Below are positions 20,211-27,746 of a stretch of 64,000 nucleotides of DNA, one piece after another. A program made the translations under genes and the position numbers. The stretch's first letter is position 1. The number at the start of each line of letters is the position of its first letter. This stretch comes from Limnochordia bacterium (GTDB taxonomy: Bacteria > Bacillota > Limnochordia > DTU080), in NCBI GenBank assembly GCA_050951545.1, contig JBMNJG010000011.1, forward strand, positions 320,001 through 384,000, read 5' to 3'. The notes beneath the pieces were generated by a model. The model was not told the origin of the DNA. It saw only the letters and a list, made by a program, of their open reading frames with translations, and did not search any database.

Positions 20211-20263
20211 GCCCGCACCGTGTAGACCGACGAACAACAGGGTTCTTGTGGAGGGCTACCAAA

Positions 20264-20557
20264 ATGCAGGCGATTACATCCAAGGACATAGAGCATGTCG
20301 CACGGCTGGCGCGCCTTGGTCTGACGAAGGCTGAGGCCGAGGAGTATGCGGCGAAGTTGGCGAGTGTTCTGGTGTTTAGGGACAAGCTGGCCACATGCGA
20401 AACGCAGGACGTGGCGCCAACGTTTTATGCAGTGTCTGGCGAGAATGAGATGAGGGCAGACCAATGCCAGTCGTCTATGCCCCAAGAGCTGGTCTTGAAG
20501 CACGCGCCTGACCGATATGAGGACTTCTTCCGCGTGCCGCGCATGTTGGAGGATTAG
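20264..20557 (+). CDS. gatC: Asp/Glu-tRNA amidotransferase subunit C
   Basis: IEHVARLARL, MRAD, FRVPRML; synteny. Confidence 0.93.
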   Translation: MQAITSKDIEHVARLARLGLTKAEAEEYAAKLASVLVFRDKLATCETQDVAPTFYAVSGENEMRADQCQSSMPQELVLKHAPDRYEDFFRVPRMLED

Positions 20558-20559
20558 AG

Positions 20560-22047
20560 ATGGGGGAATGCGGTGTGGAACTCTGTGATAGGCCCGCCCA
20601 TGTGTTGCAGGCGTTGCTAGCGCGGCGAGAGGTAAGCGCGGCTGAGGTAACGCAGTCGGTCTTTTCGCGTATGGCATCCGATGAGGAGGCGCTACACTGT
20701 TACCTCGCGGTTGATCAGGATCGGGCACTAGCCTCTGCGAGAGAGATCGATCGACGGCGGCTGGCTGGCGAAGAGCTCTCCATGCTGGCGGGTATTCCGG
20801 TGGCCATCGCCGACAACATATGCACAAGGGAGCTGGCAACAACATGTGCTTCACGCATGTTGAAGGGATTTGTGCCACCGTATGATGCGACAGTCGTACA
20901 CCGTTTGCGGCAGGCCGGGTTGCCAGTTTTGGGCAAGACCAACATGGATGAGTTTGGTTGGGGCTGCTCTACAGAGGGATCGACTTGGGGACCCACGCGA
21001 CATCCGTGGGACAAGTCGTGTCTCCCTGGTGGAGCACACGGCGGCGCAGCGGCCGCCGTGGCGAGTGGTGAGGCGGTGCTCGCTCTGGCGAGTGATACAG
21101 GCGGATCGTTACGCCAGCCAGCTGCACTATGCGGGGTGGTAGGGCTTAGGCCCACCTATGGGCGTGTTTCGCGCTATGGGTTAGTGGCCACCGCTTCCTC
21201 TCTTGACCAGGTAGGGCCCATCACTCGTGATGTGCGAGACTGTGCTTTGATGCTGAACGTGTTGGCTGGGGCAGACCCCTTGGATCCCACGTCGCAAGGC
21301 GAGGATGTACCCGATTTTGCGCGTGCTCTGGAGGCTGGCGTTCGGGGGTTGGTGGTCGGGTTGCCACGGGAGTACTTCGGTGAGGGTGTCGATTCGCAAG
21401 TCGCGGCGCTGGTTCTTCAGGCAGCGAGGCAGCTTGAGAACTGTGGTGCTCGTCTAGAAGAGGTCACGCTGCCAGCGCCCGAGGAAGCCCTAGCCGCCTA
21501 CGGAGTGATTCTTGCCGCCGAGTTCAGCTCAAGTCTGGCGCGCTTTGATGGGGTTCGCTATGGACACCGTAGCCCAAAGGCGCCCGACAGCTTCAGTATG
21601 TTTAGTAACACCCGCGCAGAGGCCTTTGGGCCGGGGGTAAAGCAGGCTATCCTTATGGGTACCTATGTCTTGTCAGCTGGGCAGTATGAGAGCTACTACC
21701 TCAAGGCGGCCCAGGTTCGCACACTGATCATGAGGGCATTCACCGCAGCTTTCAATCATTGCGACTTGCTTCTCACGCCGACTTCACCGACAGTTGCCTG
21801 TAGGGAAAACAGAGCGACGGATGATCTGTACCACATGCATCGACCACACTCTTGCACGCTGGCAGCCACCCTGGCCGGATTGCCAGCAATCAGCCTTCCG
21901 TGCGGTGTAGTAGAGGGCTTGCCAGTGGGGCTTCAGTTGGTCGGTCCACGTCTGCACGAAGAGCGCCTGTTCGCTGCTGCCTACGCCTTTGAGCAGACGG
22001 CCGGAATAGCGCCTCTGTACCCGGAAGGGAGGTCTTCTCGTGGATGA
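20560..22047 (+). CDS. gatA: Asp/Glu-tRNA amidotransferase subunit A (catalytic residues substituted)
   Basis: GKTNMDEF, SDTGGSLRQPA, RVSRYGL, SSLDQVGP, LARFDGVRYG; lies between gatC and gatB. Confidence 0.95.
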   Translation: MGECGVELCDRPAHVLQALLARREVSAAEVTQSVFSRMASDEEALHCYLAVDQDRALASAREIDRRRLAGEELSMLAGIPVAIADNICTRELATTCASRMLKGFVPPYDATVVHRLRQAGLPVLGKTNMDEFGWGCSTEGSTWGPTRHPWDKSCLPGGAHGGAAAAVASGEAVLALASDTGGSLRQPAALCGVVGLRPTYGRVSRYGLVATASSLDQVGPITRDVRDCALMLNVLAGADPLDPTSQGEDVPDFARALEAGVRGLVVGLPREYFGEGVDSQVAALVLQAARQLENCGARLEEVTLPAPEEALAAYGVILAAEFSSSLARFDGVRYGHRSPKAPDSFSMFSNTRAEAFGPGVKQAILMGTYVLSAGQYESYYLKAAQVRTLIMRAFTAAFNHCDLLLTPTSPTVACRENRATDDLYHMHRPHSCTLAATLAGLPAISLPCGVVEGLPVGLQLVGPRLHEERLFAAAYAFEQTAGIAPLYPEGRSSRG

Positions 22048-23527
22048 TACACCGTTTGAGGTGATCGTGGGTCTCGAAGTTCACGCAGAACTGCTTACAG
22101 AGTCAAAGATATTCTGCGGTTGTTCGACGGCCTTTGGAGCCACGCCAAATACGCAGGTATGCCCTGTTTGCTTGGGCCTGCCAGGTACGTTACCAGTGCT
22201 CAACGAAAAGGCCGTTGAGTATGCCGCGAAAGCAGGTCTGGCTCTGGGGTGTGCCATTTCCTTGGTCAGCCGGTTCGATCGTAAGCAGTATTTCTATCCG
22301 GACCTTCCCAAGGCTTACCAGGTCTCGCAGTTTGATCGTCCCCTGTGTACAGACGGACGCGTGGAGTTCATGCTTGGCGGTGAGCTGCATGTAGTCAGGA
22401 TCATGCGGGTGCATATGGAAGAAGAGGCTGGTAAGTCTGTCCACTCCAGCGATAGCTTGCGCGACTCGCAGTACTCGCTTATCGACTACAATCGTGGTGG
22501 ACTAGCACTCATTGAGATCGTCACCCACCCCGACATGCATTCGGGTGACGAAGCCAGGCTCTTTATGGAGCGCCTGCACACTCTGCTGCGCTATATCGAG
22601 GTGTCAGATTGCAGGATGCAGGAAGGATCTCTGCGTTGCGATGCCAATGTCAACCTGAAGATCCTCTCCGGAGAGCAACCGATTCGTACCCCTATTGTGG
22701 AGATCAAGAATCTGAACTCCTTAAGAGCCTTGGAGCGAGCGATTGACTACGAGGCGCAGCGTCAGTACCATGAGTACCTTGATGGTTCGTGGCACCCCGG
22801 CATGCCATCTGGGAAGGTGACGGCGGGGTGGAATGATATCGAGAGTCGCACCTATGTGCAGCGTGAGAAAGAACACGCCGACGATTACCGTTACTTCCCT
22901 GACCCTGATATTCTACCGGTCGTAGTGCGCGAAGGGCAGGTAGAGGCGTGGCGCAGGCAGCTGCCCGAGCTGCCTGCAGCGCGCGAAGCTCGTTTCATAA
23001 GTGAGTATGACCTTCCCGCATATGATGCTGCAGTGCTTACAGCCTCTCGTCCCATCGCTGACTTCTTTGAGGCAGTGGTCGAGCAGTGTCATGACAGCAA
23101 GATGGTCAGTAACTGGATCATGGGCGAGTTGCTTCGGTTGCTCAAGGAGGCGGAAGACGACTCGGAGCATGCTCTTCTCTCGGCCCCCATCACCGCTGCA
23201 GGCTTGGCGCAGTTGCTGCTCATGGTCAAGGAGGGGCGCATTAACGCCAACAGCGGTAAAGAGGTCTTAGAGGTCATGTACCGCACTGGTCGTACGGCTG
23301 AGGACATTGTGCATGAACGTGGCCTAGAACAGATTAGCGACACCGATAAGCTAGATCGCTTAGTCGCAGAGGTCATCGACAAGCATCCTGAGGTGGTAAC
23401 TGAGATCAAGGGCGGGAAGGTAACGGCTATCGGCTTTCTCGTGGGTCAGGTGATGAAGGCGACCCGTGGTCAGGCCAATCCAAAATTGGTCAATCAGTCG
23501 TTGCGGGACCGACTGGGCGTGGATTAG
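22040..23527 (+). CDS. gatB: Asp/Glu-tRNA amidotransferase subunit B
   Basis: GLEVHAEL, YFYPDLPK, EGSLRCDANV, EIKNLNS, DYRYFPDPD, GQVMKATRGQANP. Confidence 0.98.
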   Translation: MDDTPFEVIVGLEVHAELLTESKIFCGCSTAFGATPNTQVCPVCLGLPGTLPVLNEKAVEYAAKAGLALGCAISLVSRFDRKQYFYPDLPKAYQVSQFDRPLCTDGRVEFMLGGELHVVRIMRVHMEEEAGKSVHSSDSLRDSQYSLIDYNRGGLALIEIVTHPDMHSGDEARLFMERLHTLLRYIEVSDCRMQEGSLRCDANVNLKILSGEQPIRTPIVEIKNLNSLRALERAIDYEAQRQYHEYLDGSWHPGMPSGKVTAGWNDIESRTYVQREKEHADDYRYFPDPDILPVVVREGQVEAWRRQLPELPAAREARFISEYDLPAYDAAVLTASRPIADFFEAVVEQCHDSKMVSNWIMGELLRLLKEAEDDSEHALLSAPITAAGLAQLLLMVKEGRINANSGKEVLEVMYRTGRTAEDIVHERGLEQISDTDKLDRLVAEVIDKHPEVVTEIKGGKVTAIGFLVGQVMKATRGQANPKLVNQSLRDRLGVD

Positions 23528-24395: not shown

Positions 24396-24462
24396 ATGCC
24401 AGCCCAGCTGCTTGGGGGCCACGCAAGAAACTGCGGCAATCTTCCTGCGGTCGCTTGGGTTG

Positions 24463-24585
24463 GTGGTAAGAACCTAGCGATGCGGTCTTCGCGAAGCCCT
24501 TTTTGCTCATTTTGGTCGCCCGAAGGGCTTTTTTCACCGCCTAAGGGCACACTTTCCCGCCTTGATTTCGCTTCTGGGGCTACCG
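24463..24585. repeat. Partial, more diverged copy of the 406-bp repeat
   Basis: GTGGTAA..AGCGATGCGG(T/C)CTTCGCGAAGCCCTTTTTGCTCATTTTG..CGCCCGAAGGGCT..CTTTCCCG..CTTCTGGGGCTACCG aligns to the middle of the units; offset 472 from unit 1. Confidence 0.9.
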
Positions 24586-24809
24586 TGGATACGCTTCACT
24601 TCGGCCCTACCAAAATGGCCTAGAAAGCTCACGGTAAGCTAGGCCGGTAAAACAGCGCGCTCACCAAAAACCTGCCATCGATCCAGGCCCCAAGCTGCGG
24701 GCCATGGATTCTGATGGACAACTCCTCCATGAGTTGCCCACAGACTCCACAGCCCCGACCAAAGACATCCATTGATTCATTTATTCGTTGTTTCTGGCTG
24801 TTATCTAGT

Positions 24810-25918
24810 TGGACACGCTCGCGAGACTGGCTCGGTAGTCGGACAGATGCACCCGGATTGGTACGTGAGTCGGGGCCAAGAATCCGACCGTGATGGCAAA
24901 ATAGCCGCCCCATCAACCCCTGGGCGCAATGTACGTGGTAAAAGTGCAGCGATGCGGCCTTCGCGAAGCCCTTTTTGCTCATTTTGATCGCCCGAAGGGC
25001 TCTTTTCCCCGCCAAGAGCACGCTTTCCCGTCTCATGGCCCTTCTGGAGCTACCGGGCAGTACATAACCGAACAGTGTCGATCGCCTTTTTCCACTCAGT
25101 CGATGGGGTCAGCTCCCCAGTGCGCGATCACAGCGGGCTCGCTCGGGTCCCTCTGCGAACCGACCCTTCGGTGTTAACCCGGTGGGTGTGTTTCGAAAAG
25201 GGTGGACGGACACCATGCACACCCTCGCGAGACTCGCTCGGTAGTCGGACAGATGCACCCGCATTGGTACGTGAGTCGGGGTCAAGAATCCGACCGTGAT
25301 GGCAAAAGAGCCGCCTCATTAACCCCCGGGGCCAATGTACGTGGTAAAAGTGCAGCGATGCGGCCTTCGCGAAGCCCTTTTGGTTGGTTTGGACGGCCTG
25401 AAGGGCTCTTTCCCCCCAAAAAGAGCGCGCTTTCCCGCCCTGGCGGCCCTTCTGGGGCTACCACGCAGCACATAACCGAACGGTAGTGACTGCCTTTTTC
25501 CACTCAGTCGATGGGGTCAGCTCCCCAGTGCGCGATCACAGCGGCTCGCTCGGGTCCCTCTGCGAACCGACCCTTCAGTGTTAACCCGGTCGGTGCATTT
25601 GGAAGAGAATGGACGGATCAATGGACACGCTCGCGAGACTGGCTCGGTAGTCGGACAGATGCACCCGGATTGGTACGTGAGTCGGGGCCAAGAATCCGAC
25701 CGTGATGGCAAAATAGCCGCCCCATCAACCCCTGGGCGCAATGTACGTGGTAAAAGTGCAGCGATGCGGCCTTCGCGAAGCCCTTTTTGCTCATTTTGAT
25801 CGCCCGAAGGGCTCTTTTCCCCGCAAAGAGCACGCTTTCCGGCCTTGATGCCTCTTCTGGAGCTGCCGGACGGTACATAACCCGACGGTGGTGGTACCTT
25901 TTTCCCACTCAGTCGATG
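24810..25918. repeat. Tandem array, 406-bp period, ~2.7 copies (units start ~24810, ~25216, ~25622)
   Basis: Anchor TCGCGAGACT at 24819/25225/25631 and GCGATGCGGCC at 24949/25355/25761; all spacings are 406. Confidence 0.97.
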
Positions 25919-26049
25919 ATCCGAGGGGGAAATGCTGTCGACTCCCGGTGGCCACTGGGTCTTAGCTGGCAATGCGCGCGCAGTCAGCGAAGAACTATTG
26001 TCTGTGGAAGGATTCTGGAGCCGAACATAGAATTCAGCATTGAATCAAT

Positions 26050-26063
26050 CGAACACATGGTCG
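26050..26063. promoter_or_regulatory. Putative Firmicutes LexA (Cheo/SOS) box
   Basis: CGAACACATGGTCG matches 13/14 to CGAACRNRYGTTCG; lies between a TAGAAT -10-like hexamer (26028) and the RBS. Confidence 0.55.
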
Positions 26064-26081
26064 TTATGTGAGGTGAGGCCC

Positions 26082-27143
26082 TTGTACTCTCTCTATGTAG
26101 ATGAGGTGAACGTGCCGCTCTCACTGCTACTGACTCGCGAGCTAAAAGCCAGCGAGAAGATCGTTTGGATGGCCTTAACGATGGATGATCAGCTGGAGGA
26201 AAGTTTCCTTTTCTCGCCCAGCCGCCTGGGGCGGCGCACGGGTATGTCCCGGCCTACCGTTCGCAGGGCGACAGCCAAGTTAACCACCGAGGGCTGGTTT
26301 GCTCCACCGGCTAGGCGGGGACCTAGCCAGACCGCGGCACAGAAGCCATCCCCGGATAGGGTCTCCGTACCTGTGGAGTTAGTCATGGCTACTGAAATCC
26401 ATGCACAGGCCAAATTGGTTTATGCCCTACTGCTGTCCAAACCTACGGACCCACCTCGCAAAAGGCAGTTCACATACGCTGAGTTAGCCGGCCGGATGAG
26501 TCTGAGCCCCCAAACCATCAAACACGCGGCTCGTCAGTTGGCCAAGCATGGTTGGCTGGAGATGGAGCAGGCGCACAAGCGGGCACCGATTCGCTTCACT
26601 CTCCACAACCCGGTTGATAAGCGAAATGTAAAAGAAATACTAGACGTGCAGGATGAGCTCCACCGCGCTACGCACCTCGGAGAGGCTCTCATGCAGGCTA
26701 TCTTCTTGGCGCTTGTCGATTGCCTTGACTTCGACGACGGAATGCGCCCAGGTTTCATGAGGAACCCAGCAACTGGCAAGCGTCTGGAGGTCGATCTCTT
26801 CTATTACTTGCACAATACGGCCATGGAGTTCAATGGGGCGCAACACTACCGCGTCACGGAGCGGAATTCGGCTGAGCAGGTCCATAAGCAGCAATGCCGT
26901 GACCAGACCAAACAGCAGATCTGCGCTAAGAAGAAGATCAAGCTGATCGTGATTCAGGCTCACGAGCTGTCCTGCAAGATCATCAAGCGCAAGATTGACA
27001 GGCGGCTGCCATTCCGGCGCGGTCAGGACTTCAACCGGAAGCTCATCAACTATCTCGAGTGTAGATGCGGTGAATACCAGCAAAGAATAGATGAGCGCGG
27101 CTGGGGAACCGCCAGCCAATCTGAGAGAAAGCAAGACGAGTAG
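26082..27143 (+). CDS. Tandem winged-HTH protein with C-terminal Vsr/DUF559-like PD-(D/E)XK nuclease domain
   Basis: TTG 26082 after GAGGTGAGG; two related segments VP.(S/E)L......A..K.V...L...HTH...L...GW; then GEAL...RPGFMRNPATGKRLEVD...MEFNGAQHY...RD..K...C......LIVI. Confidence 0.7.
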   Translation: MYSLYVDEVNVPLSLLLTRELKASEKIVWMALTMDDQLEESFLFSPSRLGRRTGMSRPTVRRATAKLTTEGWFAPPARRGPSQTAAQKPSPDRVSVPVELVMATEIHAQAKLVYALLLSKPTDPPRKRQFTYAELAGRMSLSPQTIKHAARQLAKHGWLEMEQAHKRAPIRFTLHNPVDKRNVKEILDVQDELHRATHLGEALMQAIFLALVDCLDFDDGMRPGFMRNPATGKRLEVDLFYYLHNTAMEFNGAQHYRVTERNSAEQVHKQQCRDQTKQQICAKKKIKLIVIQAHELSCKIIKRKIDRRLPFRRGQDFNRKLINYLECRCGEYQQRIDERGWGTASQSERKQDE

Positions 27144-27457
27144 TCACCTTGGGTCACCTTGTTCGTTTCGTCAGGGCTCACATCGCAGGAGGAGATGAAC
27201 CCTTTATCCGAGGCTGGAGGCCGCTGGCTACCCCATTGGCAGCGGATGCGTAGAAAGCGCCTGTAAGCAGGTTGTTGTTAGGCGCCACAAGCAATCTGGA
27301 ATGCGTTGGAGCCAACTTAGGGCACAGCAGATGCCAAACGTTGCAGCATACTCCCACGGTGAACAGTGGGACGATTTCTGGGAGAGGCCAGGGGCAGCAT
27401 GATTAGTAACGGGTGTTCGCCGCGATTTCACGTGTGCACCCAGCTGCTTGCTTGTGC

Positions 27458-27486
27458 TTGACAGCCGGGAGGTTGAACTGTATGAT
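27458..27486 (+). promoter_or_regulatory. sigmaA promoter of valS leader
   Basis: TTGACA-17 nt-TATGAT. Confidence 0.85.
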
Positions 27487-27504
27487 GTGGAAAACTGGCT
27501 TATT

Positions 27505-27746
27505 GCACGGTGATGAAGGGGAGGAGTAACGGTTCAGCCCCGAAAAAAGAGAGGCTGCCCTTGGCTGGGAGGTAGCCCGGACGGACCGTGAATGTCGCCC
27601 TGGAGCAGCTTATCCCAAAATAGGCCGGGTGCGCCCGTTATCGCGTGTAGCAAGCGCCTTTGGTGCCCCCTTATGTGGTGTCAAAGGAACTAAGGTGGTA
27701 CCGCGCGAGTCTACGCGTCCTTATGGAGGACGCGTTTTTGTTTTTA
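27505..27746 (+). promoter_or_regulatory. T-box riboswitch (Val)
   Basis: Stem I with AGTA, AGAGA and GGCTGGGA motifs; specifier GTC at 27594; T-box AAGGTGGTACCGCG at 27692; terminator ACGCGTCCTT/GAGGACGCGT plus T run. Confidence 0.93.

What the first reader, a model, noticed from the sequence alone, without database searches (positions are those of the whole stretch)
20560..22047. GatA appears glutaminase-dead
Established: amidase-signature GatA uses a Ser-cisSer-Lys triad (motifs IKDN, GGSSGGS, DTGGSxRQP) and Arg/Asp residues (KRRI, MYxxD) to bind Gln. Seen here: IADN (Lys->Ala, GCC at 20809), GGAHGGA (all three Ser lost, 21034-21048), KQAI (21640-21651), MHRPH (Asp->His, 21847) and DEFGWGC instead of DEFAMGS. 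Only the nucleophile Ser motif remains. These are multi-nucleotide, in-frame changes in a full-length gene within an intact gatCAB, so they are unlikely to be sequencing noise or pseudogenisation. Inference: a structural pseudo-amidase, with GatB supplied by free NH3 or by another donor enzyme.
Basis: partly seen in the sequence, partly recalled or inferred. Interest (0 to 1): 0.75.

Follow-up and report, generated by a model that had tools for sequence, protein, structure and literature searches.

The report
Glutaminase-dead GatA kept in gatCAB
In a genus of uncultured Limnochordia bacteria from digesters and landfills, the enzyme subunit that should split glutamine to feed nitrogen into asparaginyl-tRNA synthesis has lost its catalytic and glutamine-binding residues yet is still kept by selection, so the enzyme probably runs on free ammonia.

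Summary
GatA (20560-22047) aligns end to end with solved GatA structures, but has Ala for the catalytic Lys79, Ala for cis-Ser154, His for Ser155, Ala for Arg358 and His for Asp425 (S. aureus numbering). Only the nucleophile loop DTGGSLRQP is kept.

- **Not noise or decay.** Four species-level lineages of the same genus (72-83% identical) share the state. The gene is full length, dN/dS is 0.12-0.22, and the predicted fold is that of GatA.
- **Partners intact.** GatB deviates at 2 of 75 highly conserved columns, and GatC is also under purifying selection.
- **Redundancy.** But no AsnA or AsnB was found in the genus, and no AsnRS in the two congeners (MAGs 95% and 91% complete). There gatCAB looks like the only route to Asn-tRNA(Asn).

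Best reading (about 0.6): a working amidotransferase with a pseudo-glutaminase scaffold, fed by free ammonia. This fits its digester, landfill and sludge habitat. It is inferred, not assayed.

My four literature searches found no paper on a natural dead GatA. Earlier notes of this scan report the same phenomenon on other DNA (Clostridia, Dethiobacteria, methanogens). This is a separate, milder Limnochordia case.

The parts
20246..20557 (+). gatC (103 aa), stop 2 nt before the gatA start
   Evidence: TIGR00135 73.8 bits against a cut-off of 47.1, and PF02686. dN/dS within the genus is 0.12-0.22 by NG86.
20560..22047 (+). gatA (495 aa), full-length amidase-signature protein with a degenerate glutaminase site
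   Evidence: TIGR00132 522.1 bits against a cut-off of 481.1; PF01425 456 bits. It is the only amidase-family gene found in the genome. The AF2 model has pLDDT 89.2 and pTM 0.92, and matches GatA chains at TM 0.92-0.95.
20809..20811 (+). Ala84 codon (GCC) in place of the catalytic Lys (S. aureus K79); motif IADN
   Evidence: This column is K in 216 of 217 canonical sequences.
20953..20967 (+). FGWGC in place of FAMGS (A128G, M129W, S->C)
21001..21003 (+). His148 in place of an Asn that is invariant in the 217 canonical GatA sequences
21028..21048 (+). GGAHGGA in place of GGSSGGS: cis-Ser154->Ala159, Ser155->His160, Ser158->Ala163
21094..21120 (+). DTGGSLRQP, the retained nucleophile loop (Ser183 = S. 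aureus Ser178)
   Evidence: It is kept in all members of the dead clade.
21640..21651 (+). KQAI in place of KRRI: the Gln-carboxylate-binding Arg358 is Ala363
21847..21849 (+). His430 codon (CAC) in place of the Gln-binding Asp425
22040..23527 (+). gatB (495 aa), GTG start overlapping the gatA stop by 8 nt; kinase/transamidase subunit, intact
   Evidence: NF004012 596.5 bits against a cut-off of 338; PF02934 plus PF02637. It deviates at 2 of 75 columns that are at least 95% conserved, and kin outside the genus share both changes. dN/dS is 0.055-0.076.

Best explanation
The operon encodes a working Asp-tRNA(Asn) amidotransferase (GatCAB) whose GatA subunit is a pseudo-glutaminase.

Shown:
- GatA has lost the catalytic Lys, the cis-Ser and both glutamine-anchoring residues.
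- The loss dates to the ancestor of the genus.
- gatA, gatB and gatC have stayed under purifying selection since then, and GatB keeps its conserved residues.

Inferred:
- GatA no longer hydrolyses glutamine. It is retained, with GatC, as the scaffold that GatB needs, and perhaps as the mouth of the ammonia tunnel.
- The amide nitrogen comes from free NH3/NH4+, which is plentiful in the digesters, landfills and sludge where the organism is found.
- The single bacterial-type AspRS must then be non-discriminating.
- GatCAB provides the only biosynthetic route to asparagine in this genome, which also has AsnRS for free Asn.
- In its two congeners GatCAB provides the only route to Asn-tRNA(Asn) at all.
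For: 1. **Loss of glutaminase residues.** Alignment to S. aureus, P. aeruginosa and Aquifex GatA. Conserved-column test: 14 of 108 conserved columns deviate, and 12 are changed in every clade member.
2. **Old and maintained.**
   - The same state is in G001, G002 and P0003 (72-83% identical), while the next relative, P0006 (59%), is canonical.
   - In the GatA tree the clade has 100% support. Its stem is 0.38, against 0.17 for the same stem in the GatB tree, whereas branches inside the clade are about equal in both trees. This indicates a burst of change followed by renewed constraint.
3. **Selection.** gatA dN/dS is 0.127, 0.126 and 0.181 (NG86) and up to 0.22 by other methods. Canonical gatA pairs range from 0.016 to 0.29. 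The amidase-signature core (residues about 76-225) is the most conserved part within the clade.
4. **Intact partners.** GatB deviates at 2 of 75 conserved columns, and kin outside the genus share both changes. It shares all invariant columns of a 22-row alignment, including E13, H15, E127, E128 and E159. gatC dN/dS is about 0.12.
5. **Need for the operon.**
   - No AsnA (0 of 5 genomes) and no true AsnB in G000, G001 or G002, where the only hits score 25-31 bits; G004 has one at 327 bits.
   - AsnRS was not found in G001 (95% complete) or G002 (91%), either with NF003037 or with the window genome's own AsnRS protein.
   - There is no second gatA.
6. **tRNA features.** tRNA(Asn) has U1-A72 and tRNA(Asp) has G1-C72. 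U1-A72 is the feature bacterial GatCAB requires (PMC4206432, section 16).
7. **Ammonia can replace glutamine in vitro.** With yeast GatFAB, NH4Cl bypasses the glutaminase step (PMC4027206, passages).
8. **Habitat.** All 16 DNA runs holding at least half of the words of the stretch are labelled bioreactor (10), anaerobic digester (2), landfill (2) or sludge (2) metagenomes, from 14 studies. One of them may be the source sample.
9. **Precedent for the gene set.** GlnRS + AsnRS + GatCAB + one AspRS with no Asn synthetase is the Bdellovibrio/Legionella arrangement, where GatCAB makes Asn on tRNA (PMC4206432, abstract and section 16).
Against: - No assay exists: 'dead' and 'ammonia-fed' are inferences from residues and gene content.
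- This genome itself has both GlnRS and AsnRS. Here the operon is needed only if the cell must make its own Asn.
- gatA dN/dS is 1.6-3 times that of gatB in the same genome pairs. That is at the upper end of canonical pairs, so some relaxation is possible.
- The absence of AsnRS in the congeners rests on two MAGs (95% and 91% complete) that are each other's closest relatives, so it may reflect a single loss or gap rather than two independent ones.
- The retained nucleophile loop is not explained by a pure scaffold role.
- Lack of an Amt ammonium transporter does not discriminate: it was not found in 31 of 41 Limnochordia genomes, most of which have canonical GatA.
- How external ammonia would reach the GatB site is unknown. 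I could not read the papers listing tunnel residues.
- Evidence of transcription is weak: a few 150-270 nt low-depth contigs at 99-100% identity in four biogas metatranscriptome libraries, which may contain DNA.
Confidence: 0.6

Rival explanations
1. Remodelled, still catalytic site. GatA keeps Ser183 and its oxyanion loop and has gained His148, His160 and His430 in the pocket. It might hydrolyse an amide by a Ser-His-type mechanism, perhaps with a donor other than glutamine.
For: The nucleophile loop DTGGSLRQP is intact in all clade members. His148 and His430 are invariant in the 4 full-length clade sequences. The core around the site is the most conserved part of the protein within the clade.
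Against: His160 is Gln in P0003. The 12 replaced positions are invariant within the clade in 8 of 12 cases (67%), against 61% for the whole protein, so they show no extra constraint. Both the Lys and the cis-Ser, used by all characterised amidase-signature enzymes, are Ala (established family knowledge; PMC2330236). Both Gln anchors are gone. I had no coordinates of the model, so I could not test whether the His residues lie within reach of Ser183.
Confidence: 0.12
2. Redundant relic. With GlnRS and AsnRS in the genome, gatCAB is no longer needed and gatA is at an early stage of decay.
For: GlnRS (TIGR00440, 733 bits) and AsnRS (NF003037, 577 bits) are present in this genome. gatA dN/dS is 1.6-3 times that of gatB. 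In the same family, G005 carries a further degenerate operon GatA (K->M, DTGGS deleted) next to a second gatCAB operon.
Against: There is no stop or frameshift in any of 4 lineages that are 17-28% diverged in protein. dN/dS is 0.12-0.22, far below 1. GatB and GatC are intact and constrained. No AsnA or AsnB was found in the genus, and no AsnRS in G001 or G002. The substitutions are concentrated at the glutaminase site rather than spread over the protein.
Confidence: 0.1
3. Another enzyme supplies the nitrogen. A separate glutaminase, asparaginase or other ammonia-releasing protein docks on GatA or GatB, or channels ammonia to the complex.
For: Archaeal GatDE shows that a different ammonia-releasing subunit (an asparaginase homologue) can serve a GatB-like kinase (PMC2330236, passages).
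Against: The neighbourhood (PBP5-like gene, ligA, gatC, gatA, gatB, lgt-like gene) is the same in dead-GatA genomes (L040, L127), in the degenerate G005 operon (L122) and, over the part of L013 that was fetched (ligA to gatB), in canonical G004. There is no extra gene. No GatD-type asparaginase domain (PF00710) and no second amidase were found in the genome. I did not screen class I/II glutamine amidotransferase domains or glsA as free-standing partners.
Confidence: 0.08
4. Non-catalytic new role. The complex is kept for something other than transamidation, for example binding or sequestering tRNA or stabilising AspRS.
For: None directly. It would also explain conservation without glutaminase activity.
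Against: GatB keeps its conserved columns, including the acidic and His residues at the catalytic end of the protein. A purely binding role would not require that. G001 and G002 appear to need the reaction.
Confidence: 0.05

Closest known systems
Canonical bacterial GatCAB (S. aureus 2DF4/2F2A, A. aeolicus 3H0L, P. aeruginosa transamidosome 4WJ3)
   Same: Same three genes in the same order. GatA is 43-46% identical to these chains with the same predicted fold (TM 0.92-0.95). GatB and GatC are orthologous and intact. tRNA(Asn) has U1-A72.
   Different: GatA lacks K79, cis-S154, S155, R358 and D425 and carries further changes at columns that are invariant elsewhere. Glutamine can hardly be bound or hydrolysed by the known mechanism.
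Bdellovibrio bacteriovorus / Legionella pneumophila type: GlnRS + AsnRS + GatCAB + a single AspRS, no Asn synthetase (PMC4206432)
   Same: Gene content identical to this genome. There GatCAB with a non-discriminating AspRS makes Asn on tRNA (abstract and section 16 read).
   Different: Those organisms are described with ordinary GatCAB. Nothing in the parts I read mentions a degenerate GatA.
Glutaminase-dead GatA clades noted earlier in this scan on other DNA (AI notes e1-2359850, e1-5457341, e1-4233447, e1-2088268, e1-3190777, e1-1092006, e1-4648902, e1-3974207)
   Same: Same phenomenon and same proposed mechanism: conserved dead GatA in a gatCAB or AspRS-GatC operon, with free ammonia as donor, in anaerobes.
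   Different: Those are other lineages (Clostridia, Dethiobacteria, methanogenic archaea). Several have a shortened GatA or have lost the whole triad. Here GatA is full length, keeps the nucleophile loop, and its nearest relatives (59% identity) are canonical, so this is a separate and apparently younger loss. I did not re-test those notes.
Ammonia-using relatives of glutamine amidotransferases that keep or drop a dead glutaminase part (vertebrate CPS I with an inactive glutaminase-like domain; NH3-dependent NadE; AsnA versus AsnB) - recalled, from no call
   Same: The logic is the same: the synthetase half works with free ammonia and the glutaminase part is inactive or absent.
   Different: Different protein families. 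None is a tRNA-dependent amidotransferase.
AtzE-AtzG, 1-carboxybiuret hydrolase (PDB 6C62, 'vestigial protein complex')
   Same: A GatA-like amidase with a small partner. It appears at Foldseek rank 9 (TM 0.84, 31% identity) and shows that the GatA module can change role.
   Different: 6C62_A is named biuret hydrolase in the PDB list. It is not in a gatCAB operon and, from recall, keeps the triad. This protein stays in the operon and has lost the triad.

Membership tests
GatA (TIGR00132), glutaminase subunit of GatCAB | Sequence scores over the curated equivalog cut-off | tested here: met
   522.1 bits against a cut-off of 481.1.
GatA (TIGR00132), glutaminase subunit of GatCAB | Amidase-signature fold | tested here: met
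   PF01425 456 bits. AF2 model pLDDT 89.2, pTM 0.92. The best Foldseek hits are GatA chains at TM 0.92-0.95, rmsd 1.7-2.2 A. AF2 is insensitive to point changes.
GatA (TIGR00132), glutaminase subunit of GatCAB | Ser-cisSer-Lys catalytic triad (S178, S154, K79 in S. aureus) | tested here: not met
   Only S178 is kept (S183). K79->A84 and S154->A159.
GatA (TIGR00132), glutaminase subunit of GatCAB | Glutamine-anchoring Arg358 and Asp425 | tested here: not met
   A363 and H430. Roles from PMC4027206, section 16.
GatA (TIGR00132), glutaminase subunit of GatCAB | Position between gatC and gatB in one operon | tested here: met
   The gatC stop lies 2 nt before the gatA start, and the gatA stop overlaps the gatB start by 8 nt. 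The order is the same in relatives.
GatA (TIGR00132), glutaminase subunit of GatCAB | Glutaminase activity | not testable with these tools
   Needs an enzyme assay.
[quoted passage not shown] | GatB with conserved kinase/transamidase residues and a YqeY tail | tested here: met
   NF004012 596.5 bits; PF02934 plus PF02637. 73 of 75 conserved columns are kept. All invariant columns of alignment A3 are shared.
[quoted passage not shown] | Substrate tRNA(Asn) with U1-A72 | tested here: met
   Both tRNA(Asn) genes begin with T and pair with A72; tRNA(Asp) has G1-C72.
[quoted passage not shown] | GatA, GatB and GatC assemble | tested here: inconclusive
   The complex prediction returned 'no answer'. 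The only indirect support is that all three genes are under purifying selection.
[quoted passage not shown] | ATP-dependent transamidation of Asp-tRNA(Asn) with an amide donor | not testable with these tools
   Needs an assay with Gln, Asn and NH4Cl.
Pseudogene / decaying gene | Stops or frameshifts, or dN/dS near 1 | tested here: not met
   The frame is open over 495 codons here and in G001 (L011), the G002 lineage (L127) and the P0003 protein. dN/dS is 0.12-0.22.

The most novel reading that the evidence does not exclude
The pocket is not merely dead but rebuilt. With Ser183 and its loop kept and three histidines (148, 160, 430) plus Trp134 and Cys136 brought in, GatA of this genus may have become either a new kind of amidase-signature enzyme that frees ammonia from a donor other than glutamine, or a gated ammonium-binding entrance to the tunnel. 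Together with the more degenerate G005 copy and the partly changed P0020 and G003 proteins, Limnochordia would then show successive stages of how a glutamine amidotransferase turns into an ammonia-dependent enzyme.
Probability: 0.12. Interest if true: 0.85.

Novelty: new variant of a known kind. Interest (0 to 1): 0.62.

Why it matters
GatCAB is described in the review and structure papers I read as a glutamine-dependent enzyme in which glutamine hydrolysis is coupled to tRNA transamidation through a gated tunnel. A natural complex that keeps GatA but has discarded its chemistry has several consequences.

- The GatB half can live on free ammonia in vivo.
- It gives a natural 'uncoupled' enzyme for studying how ammonia enters and how the tunnel is gated.
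- It shows that genome annotation ('GatA' by equivalog score) can hide a pseudoenzyme.
- It links translation to nitrogen status in a new way: in ammonia-rich digesters and landfills the cell would save one glutamine, and so one ATP at glutamine synthetase, per Asn-tRNA made. This saving is my inference.

Because the loss here is recent and mild, with the nucleophile loop intact and canonical relatives at 59% identity, this clade suits reconstruction experiments better than the more eroded cases.

Tried and rejected
- **Complex prediction** (GatA + GatB residues 1-300 + GatC): verdict 'no answer'. A control in which chain 2 (GatB) was replaced scored 0.83 against 0.94. It gives no evidence either way.
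- **Expression**. Four biogas-fermenter metatranscriptome libraries hold only short low-depth contigs at 99-100% identity:
  - gatA: 20928-21136 in X18 and 21388-21615 in X20.
  - gatB: several pieces in X17-X19.
  - The deeper matches are 26-50 nt pieces of other organisms' contigs, and DNA carry-over cannot be excluded. I treat this as a weak hint only.
- **Ammonium transporter Amt**: not found in this genome, but also not in 31 of 41 Limnochordia genomes searched, so it does not discriminate.
- **Signal of new function at the replaced residues**: 8 of 12 are invariant within the clade, against 61% overall. No signal.
- **More lineages**: the metagenome scan gave only L127 (identical to P0004) and L128 (99.7% identical to P0005). 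No new lineage and no intermediate form.
- **Partner gene in the neighbourhood**: none. GatD-type asparaginase: none.
- **Tunnel residue lists**: the two papers I wanted (PMC3604897, PMC2830067) are not held. I could not test tunnel residues one by one and relied on the conserved-column test instead.
- **Saturation:** dS is above 1 for comparisons with G000, so the least saturated pair (G001 against the G002 lineage, dS about 0.5) carries most weight.
- **Single or double loss:** the G005 degenerate GatA groups with the dead clade only weakly (SH-aLRT 87, long branch), and the GatB tree leaves the family unresolved. I could not decide between one loss and two.
- **Literature**: no paper describing a natural catalytically dead GatA was found. 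Supplements were not consulted.
Full report
**What is there.** The window comes from contig C11 of a 3.64-Mb, 16-contig genome (93.9% complete). It belongs to an uncultured member of the class Limnochordia; that name comes from the record title of the congener locus L040 and a source name of P0005. Positions 20246-23527 hold gatC, gatA and gatB on the + strand. The gatC stop lies 2 nt before the gatA start, and the gatA stop overlaps the GTG start of gatB by 8 nt. All three pass NCBIfam equivalog cut-offs: gatC 73.8/47.1, gatA 522.1/481.1, gatB 596.5/338 bits. Upstream lie a PBP5-type carboxypeptidase gene (- strand) and ligA; downstream lies an lgt-like gene.

**The observation.** It is correct in every detail. 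In the phmmer alignment with S. aureus GatA (2df4_A, E 3.2e-129) the changes are as follows:

| S. aureus residue | Role | Window residue |
|---|---|---|
| Lys79 | catalytic Lys | Ala84 (GCC, 20809) |
| Ser154 | cis-Ser | Ala159 |
| Ser155 | | His160 |
| Ser158 | | Ala163 |
| Arg357 / Arg358 | Arg358 anchors Gln | Gln362 / Ala363 |
| Asp425 | Gln anchor | His430 |
| Ala128 / Met129 | | Gly133 / Trp134 |
| Ser178 | nucleophile | kept as Ser183, with its loop DTGGSLRQP |

The roles of these residues come from the review PMC2330236 (passages) and from the yeast GatFAB structure paper PMC4027206 (section 16).

I tested how unusual this is on 223 GatA sequences, taken from 110 fetched loci and 118 database proteins after removing duplicates. 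Of these, 217 were treated as canonical. In them, 108 columns are at least 95% conserved. The window's protein departs from 14 of those columns, against a canonical median of 1 and maximum of 11. Twelve columns are changed in every member of its clade: K84A, A133G, M134W, N148H, S159A, S160H/Q, G177A, E359G/A, R363A/G, P423L, D430H and N437T/S. Five of these columns are invariant in all 217 canonical sequences.

**Not an artefact, not a pseudogene.**
- The same state occurs in the two other genomes of the genus (G001 at 74% identity; G002, split over two contig ends) and in database proteins P0003 (83%), P0004 (72%, the G002 lineage) and P0005 (the G001 lineage). That makes four species-level lineages.
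- The next relative, P0006 (59%), and 26 of the 30 Limnochordia operon copies fetched have the normal residues at the key positions.
- All full-length copies are open reading frames of about 490 codons.
- dN/dS (NG86) for gatA is 0.127 (G000-G001), 0.126 (G000-G002 lineage) and 0.181 (G001-G002 lineage, the least saturated pair, dS about 0.5). Other estimators give up to 0.22.
- Canonical gatA pairs of similar divergence give 0.016-0.29.
- gatB gives 0.055-0.076 and gatC about 0.12. gatA is therefore clearly constrained, although 1.6-3 times less so than gatB. That ratio lies at the upper end of the canonical range (0.5-4.0).
- In maximum-likelihood trees the dead clade has full support. Its stem is 0.38 changes per site for GatA and 0.17 for GatB, while branches within the clade are about equal in the two proteins. 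This is the pattern of a burst of change when the function was lost, followed by renewed constraint.
- Within the clade the amidase-signature core (residues about 76-225) is the most conserved region.
- An AlphaFold2 model is confident (pLDDT 89.2, pTM 0.92), with its weakest stretch at 411-430. It superposes on solved GatA chains at TM 0.92-0.95.

**The partners.** GatB departs from only 2 of 75 highly conserved columns, and kin outside the genus share both changes. It shares every invariant column of a 22-row alignment and aligns along its whole length with solved GatB chains. GatC is retained and constrained. According to the review, GatC is needed for GatA to fold and to bind GatB (PMC2330236). 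Its retention therefore argues that the GatA-GatC-GatB assembly still matters.

**Is the operon needed?**
There is no second amidase-family gene.
- GlnRS (733 bits), AsnRS (577 bits), GluRS and one bacterial-type AspRS are present.
- GlnRS is common in the class: over the cut-off in 28 of 41 genomes, including all six of the family. GatCAB here is therefore probably an Asp-tRNA(Asn) enzyme.
- No asparagine synthetase was found. AsnA was found in 0 of 5 genomes. In G000, G001 and G002 the only AsnB-type hits are 25-31-bit matches to other PP-loop proteins, whereas G004 has a true AsnB at 327 bits.
- AsnRS is over the cut-off in G000, G004 and G005 and is split over two frames in G003. It was not found in G001 (95% complete) or G002 (91%), either with the family model or with this genome's own AsnRS as query.
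- In this genome the operon is therefore the only visible way to make asparagine. This is the arrangement shown experimentally for Bdellovibrio and Legionella (PMC4206432).
- In the congeners it is the only visible way to make Asn-tRNA(Asn) at all.
- tRNA(Asn) carries the U1-A72 pair that bacterial GatCAB requires, and tRNA(Asp) has G1-C72.

**Mechanism proposed.** Shown: the glutaminase residues are lost, the loss is old, and all three genes remain constrained. Inferred: GatA cannot bind or split glutamine by the known mechanism; GatB still phosphorylates and amidates Asp-tRNA(Asn); and the nitrogen is free ammonia. For yeast GatFAB, ammonium chloride bypasses the glutaminase step in vitro (PMC4027206). 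The habitat fits: all 16 DNA runs that hold most of this stretch are labelled bioreactor, anaerobic digester, landfill or sludge metagenomes, from 14 studies, one of which may be the source. That such habitats are rich in ammonia is general knowledge, and listings of papers on high-ammonia biogas reactors mention Limnochordia (titles and abstracts only). Glutamine synthetase and a glutamine-dependent PurF with its N-terminal Cys are present, so scarcity of glutamine is not the reason.

**Rivals.**
- *A rebuilt active site* (Ser183 plus new histidines). It cannot be excluded. However, His160 is not conserved, and the replaced positions are no more constrained than the rest of the protein.
- *A decaying relic.* It is contradicted by the selection data and by the gene content of the congeners.
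- *A separate ammonia-supplying partner.* It has no candidate: the neighbourhood is unchanged, and there is no GatD-type asparaginase and no second amidase. I did not screen free-standing glutamine amidotransferase domains.

**Relation to what is known.** By sequence, fold and position the protein is a GatA orthologue, but it fails the two features that define GatA as a glutaminase. I file it as a pseudo-glutaminase variant of GatA inside an otherwise ordinary GatCAB. Four full-text searches found no paper describing a natural dead GatA. Earlier AI notes of this scan describe the same phenomenon in other lineages. I did not test those notes. They were retrieved after I had recorded my own reading, and they agree with it. 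The present clade is a separate loss, because its closest relatives are canonical. It is also the mildest form among those described: full length, with the nucleophile loop intact.

Within the same family, G005 carries a more eroded operon copy (K->M, DTGGS deleted) beside a second, divergent gatCAB operon. P0020 has K->N, cis-Ser->Ala and Asp->Glu. Limnochordia may thus hold several stages of the same process.

**Verdict.** Interest is moderate to high. This is a new variant of a known enzyme system that makes an open question directly testable with a recent and tractable natural example: can the tRNA amidotransferase run on ammonia in vivo, and what is GatA for beyond its chemistry?

Noticed in passing
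window 24460-25950 (within 24400-27700): A unit of about 406 nt is repeated 3-4 times in tandem (84-99% identity between long copies). It lies inside a stretch of about 3.3 kb between the lgt-like gene and the next conserved gene. The congeners (L040, L127) lack this stretch: there the two genes are about 170-270 nt apart. No Rfam family matches.
   Followed up: partly
L122 (G005:C183) and L120 (G005:C159): A genome of the same family has two complete gatCAB operons. One is vertical (GatB 63% identical to the window's), and its GatA has Met for the catalytic Lys and has lost the DTGGS nucleophile motif. The other is a divergent, long-branch operon with a canonical GatA. That genome is listed with 5% contamination, so the second operon could be foreign.
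   Followed up: partly
P0020 (database protein, 57% identical to the window's GatA): Another GatA with Asn for the catalytic Lys, Ala for the cis-Ser and Glu for Asp425, but with Arg358 and the nucleophile loop kept. Its nearest rows are canonical Limnochordia-type sequences at about 60% identity.
   Followed up: partly
G003:C133:3171-4606 (L125): The AsnRS gene of this family member is split into two overlapping frames (residues 1-216 and 196-427 of the query). This is either a frameshift or an assembly error. Its GatA is canonical except Asp425->Asn.
   Followed up: no
G015, G024, G031, G034 (genus g14, same class): No GatA match at all in four genomes that are 96-99% complete. Three of them have both GlnRS and AsnRS over the cut-off. 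G024 has GlnRS but no AsnRS over the cut-off.
   Followed up: no
41 Limnochordia genomes (G000-G040): The Amt ammonium transporter family (PF00909) was not found in 31 of 41 genomes, including all six of the window's family, although it is found in all 14 control genomes.
   Followed up: partly
L011 versus L127 (G001 and G002 lineages): Synonymous divergence differs about twofold between adjacent genes of the same operon: gatA and gatC have dS about 0.5, gatB about 1.1-1.2. The cause is unexplained; recombination or codon-usage differences are possible.
   Followed up: no
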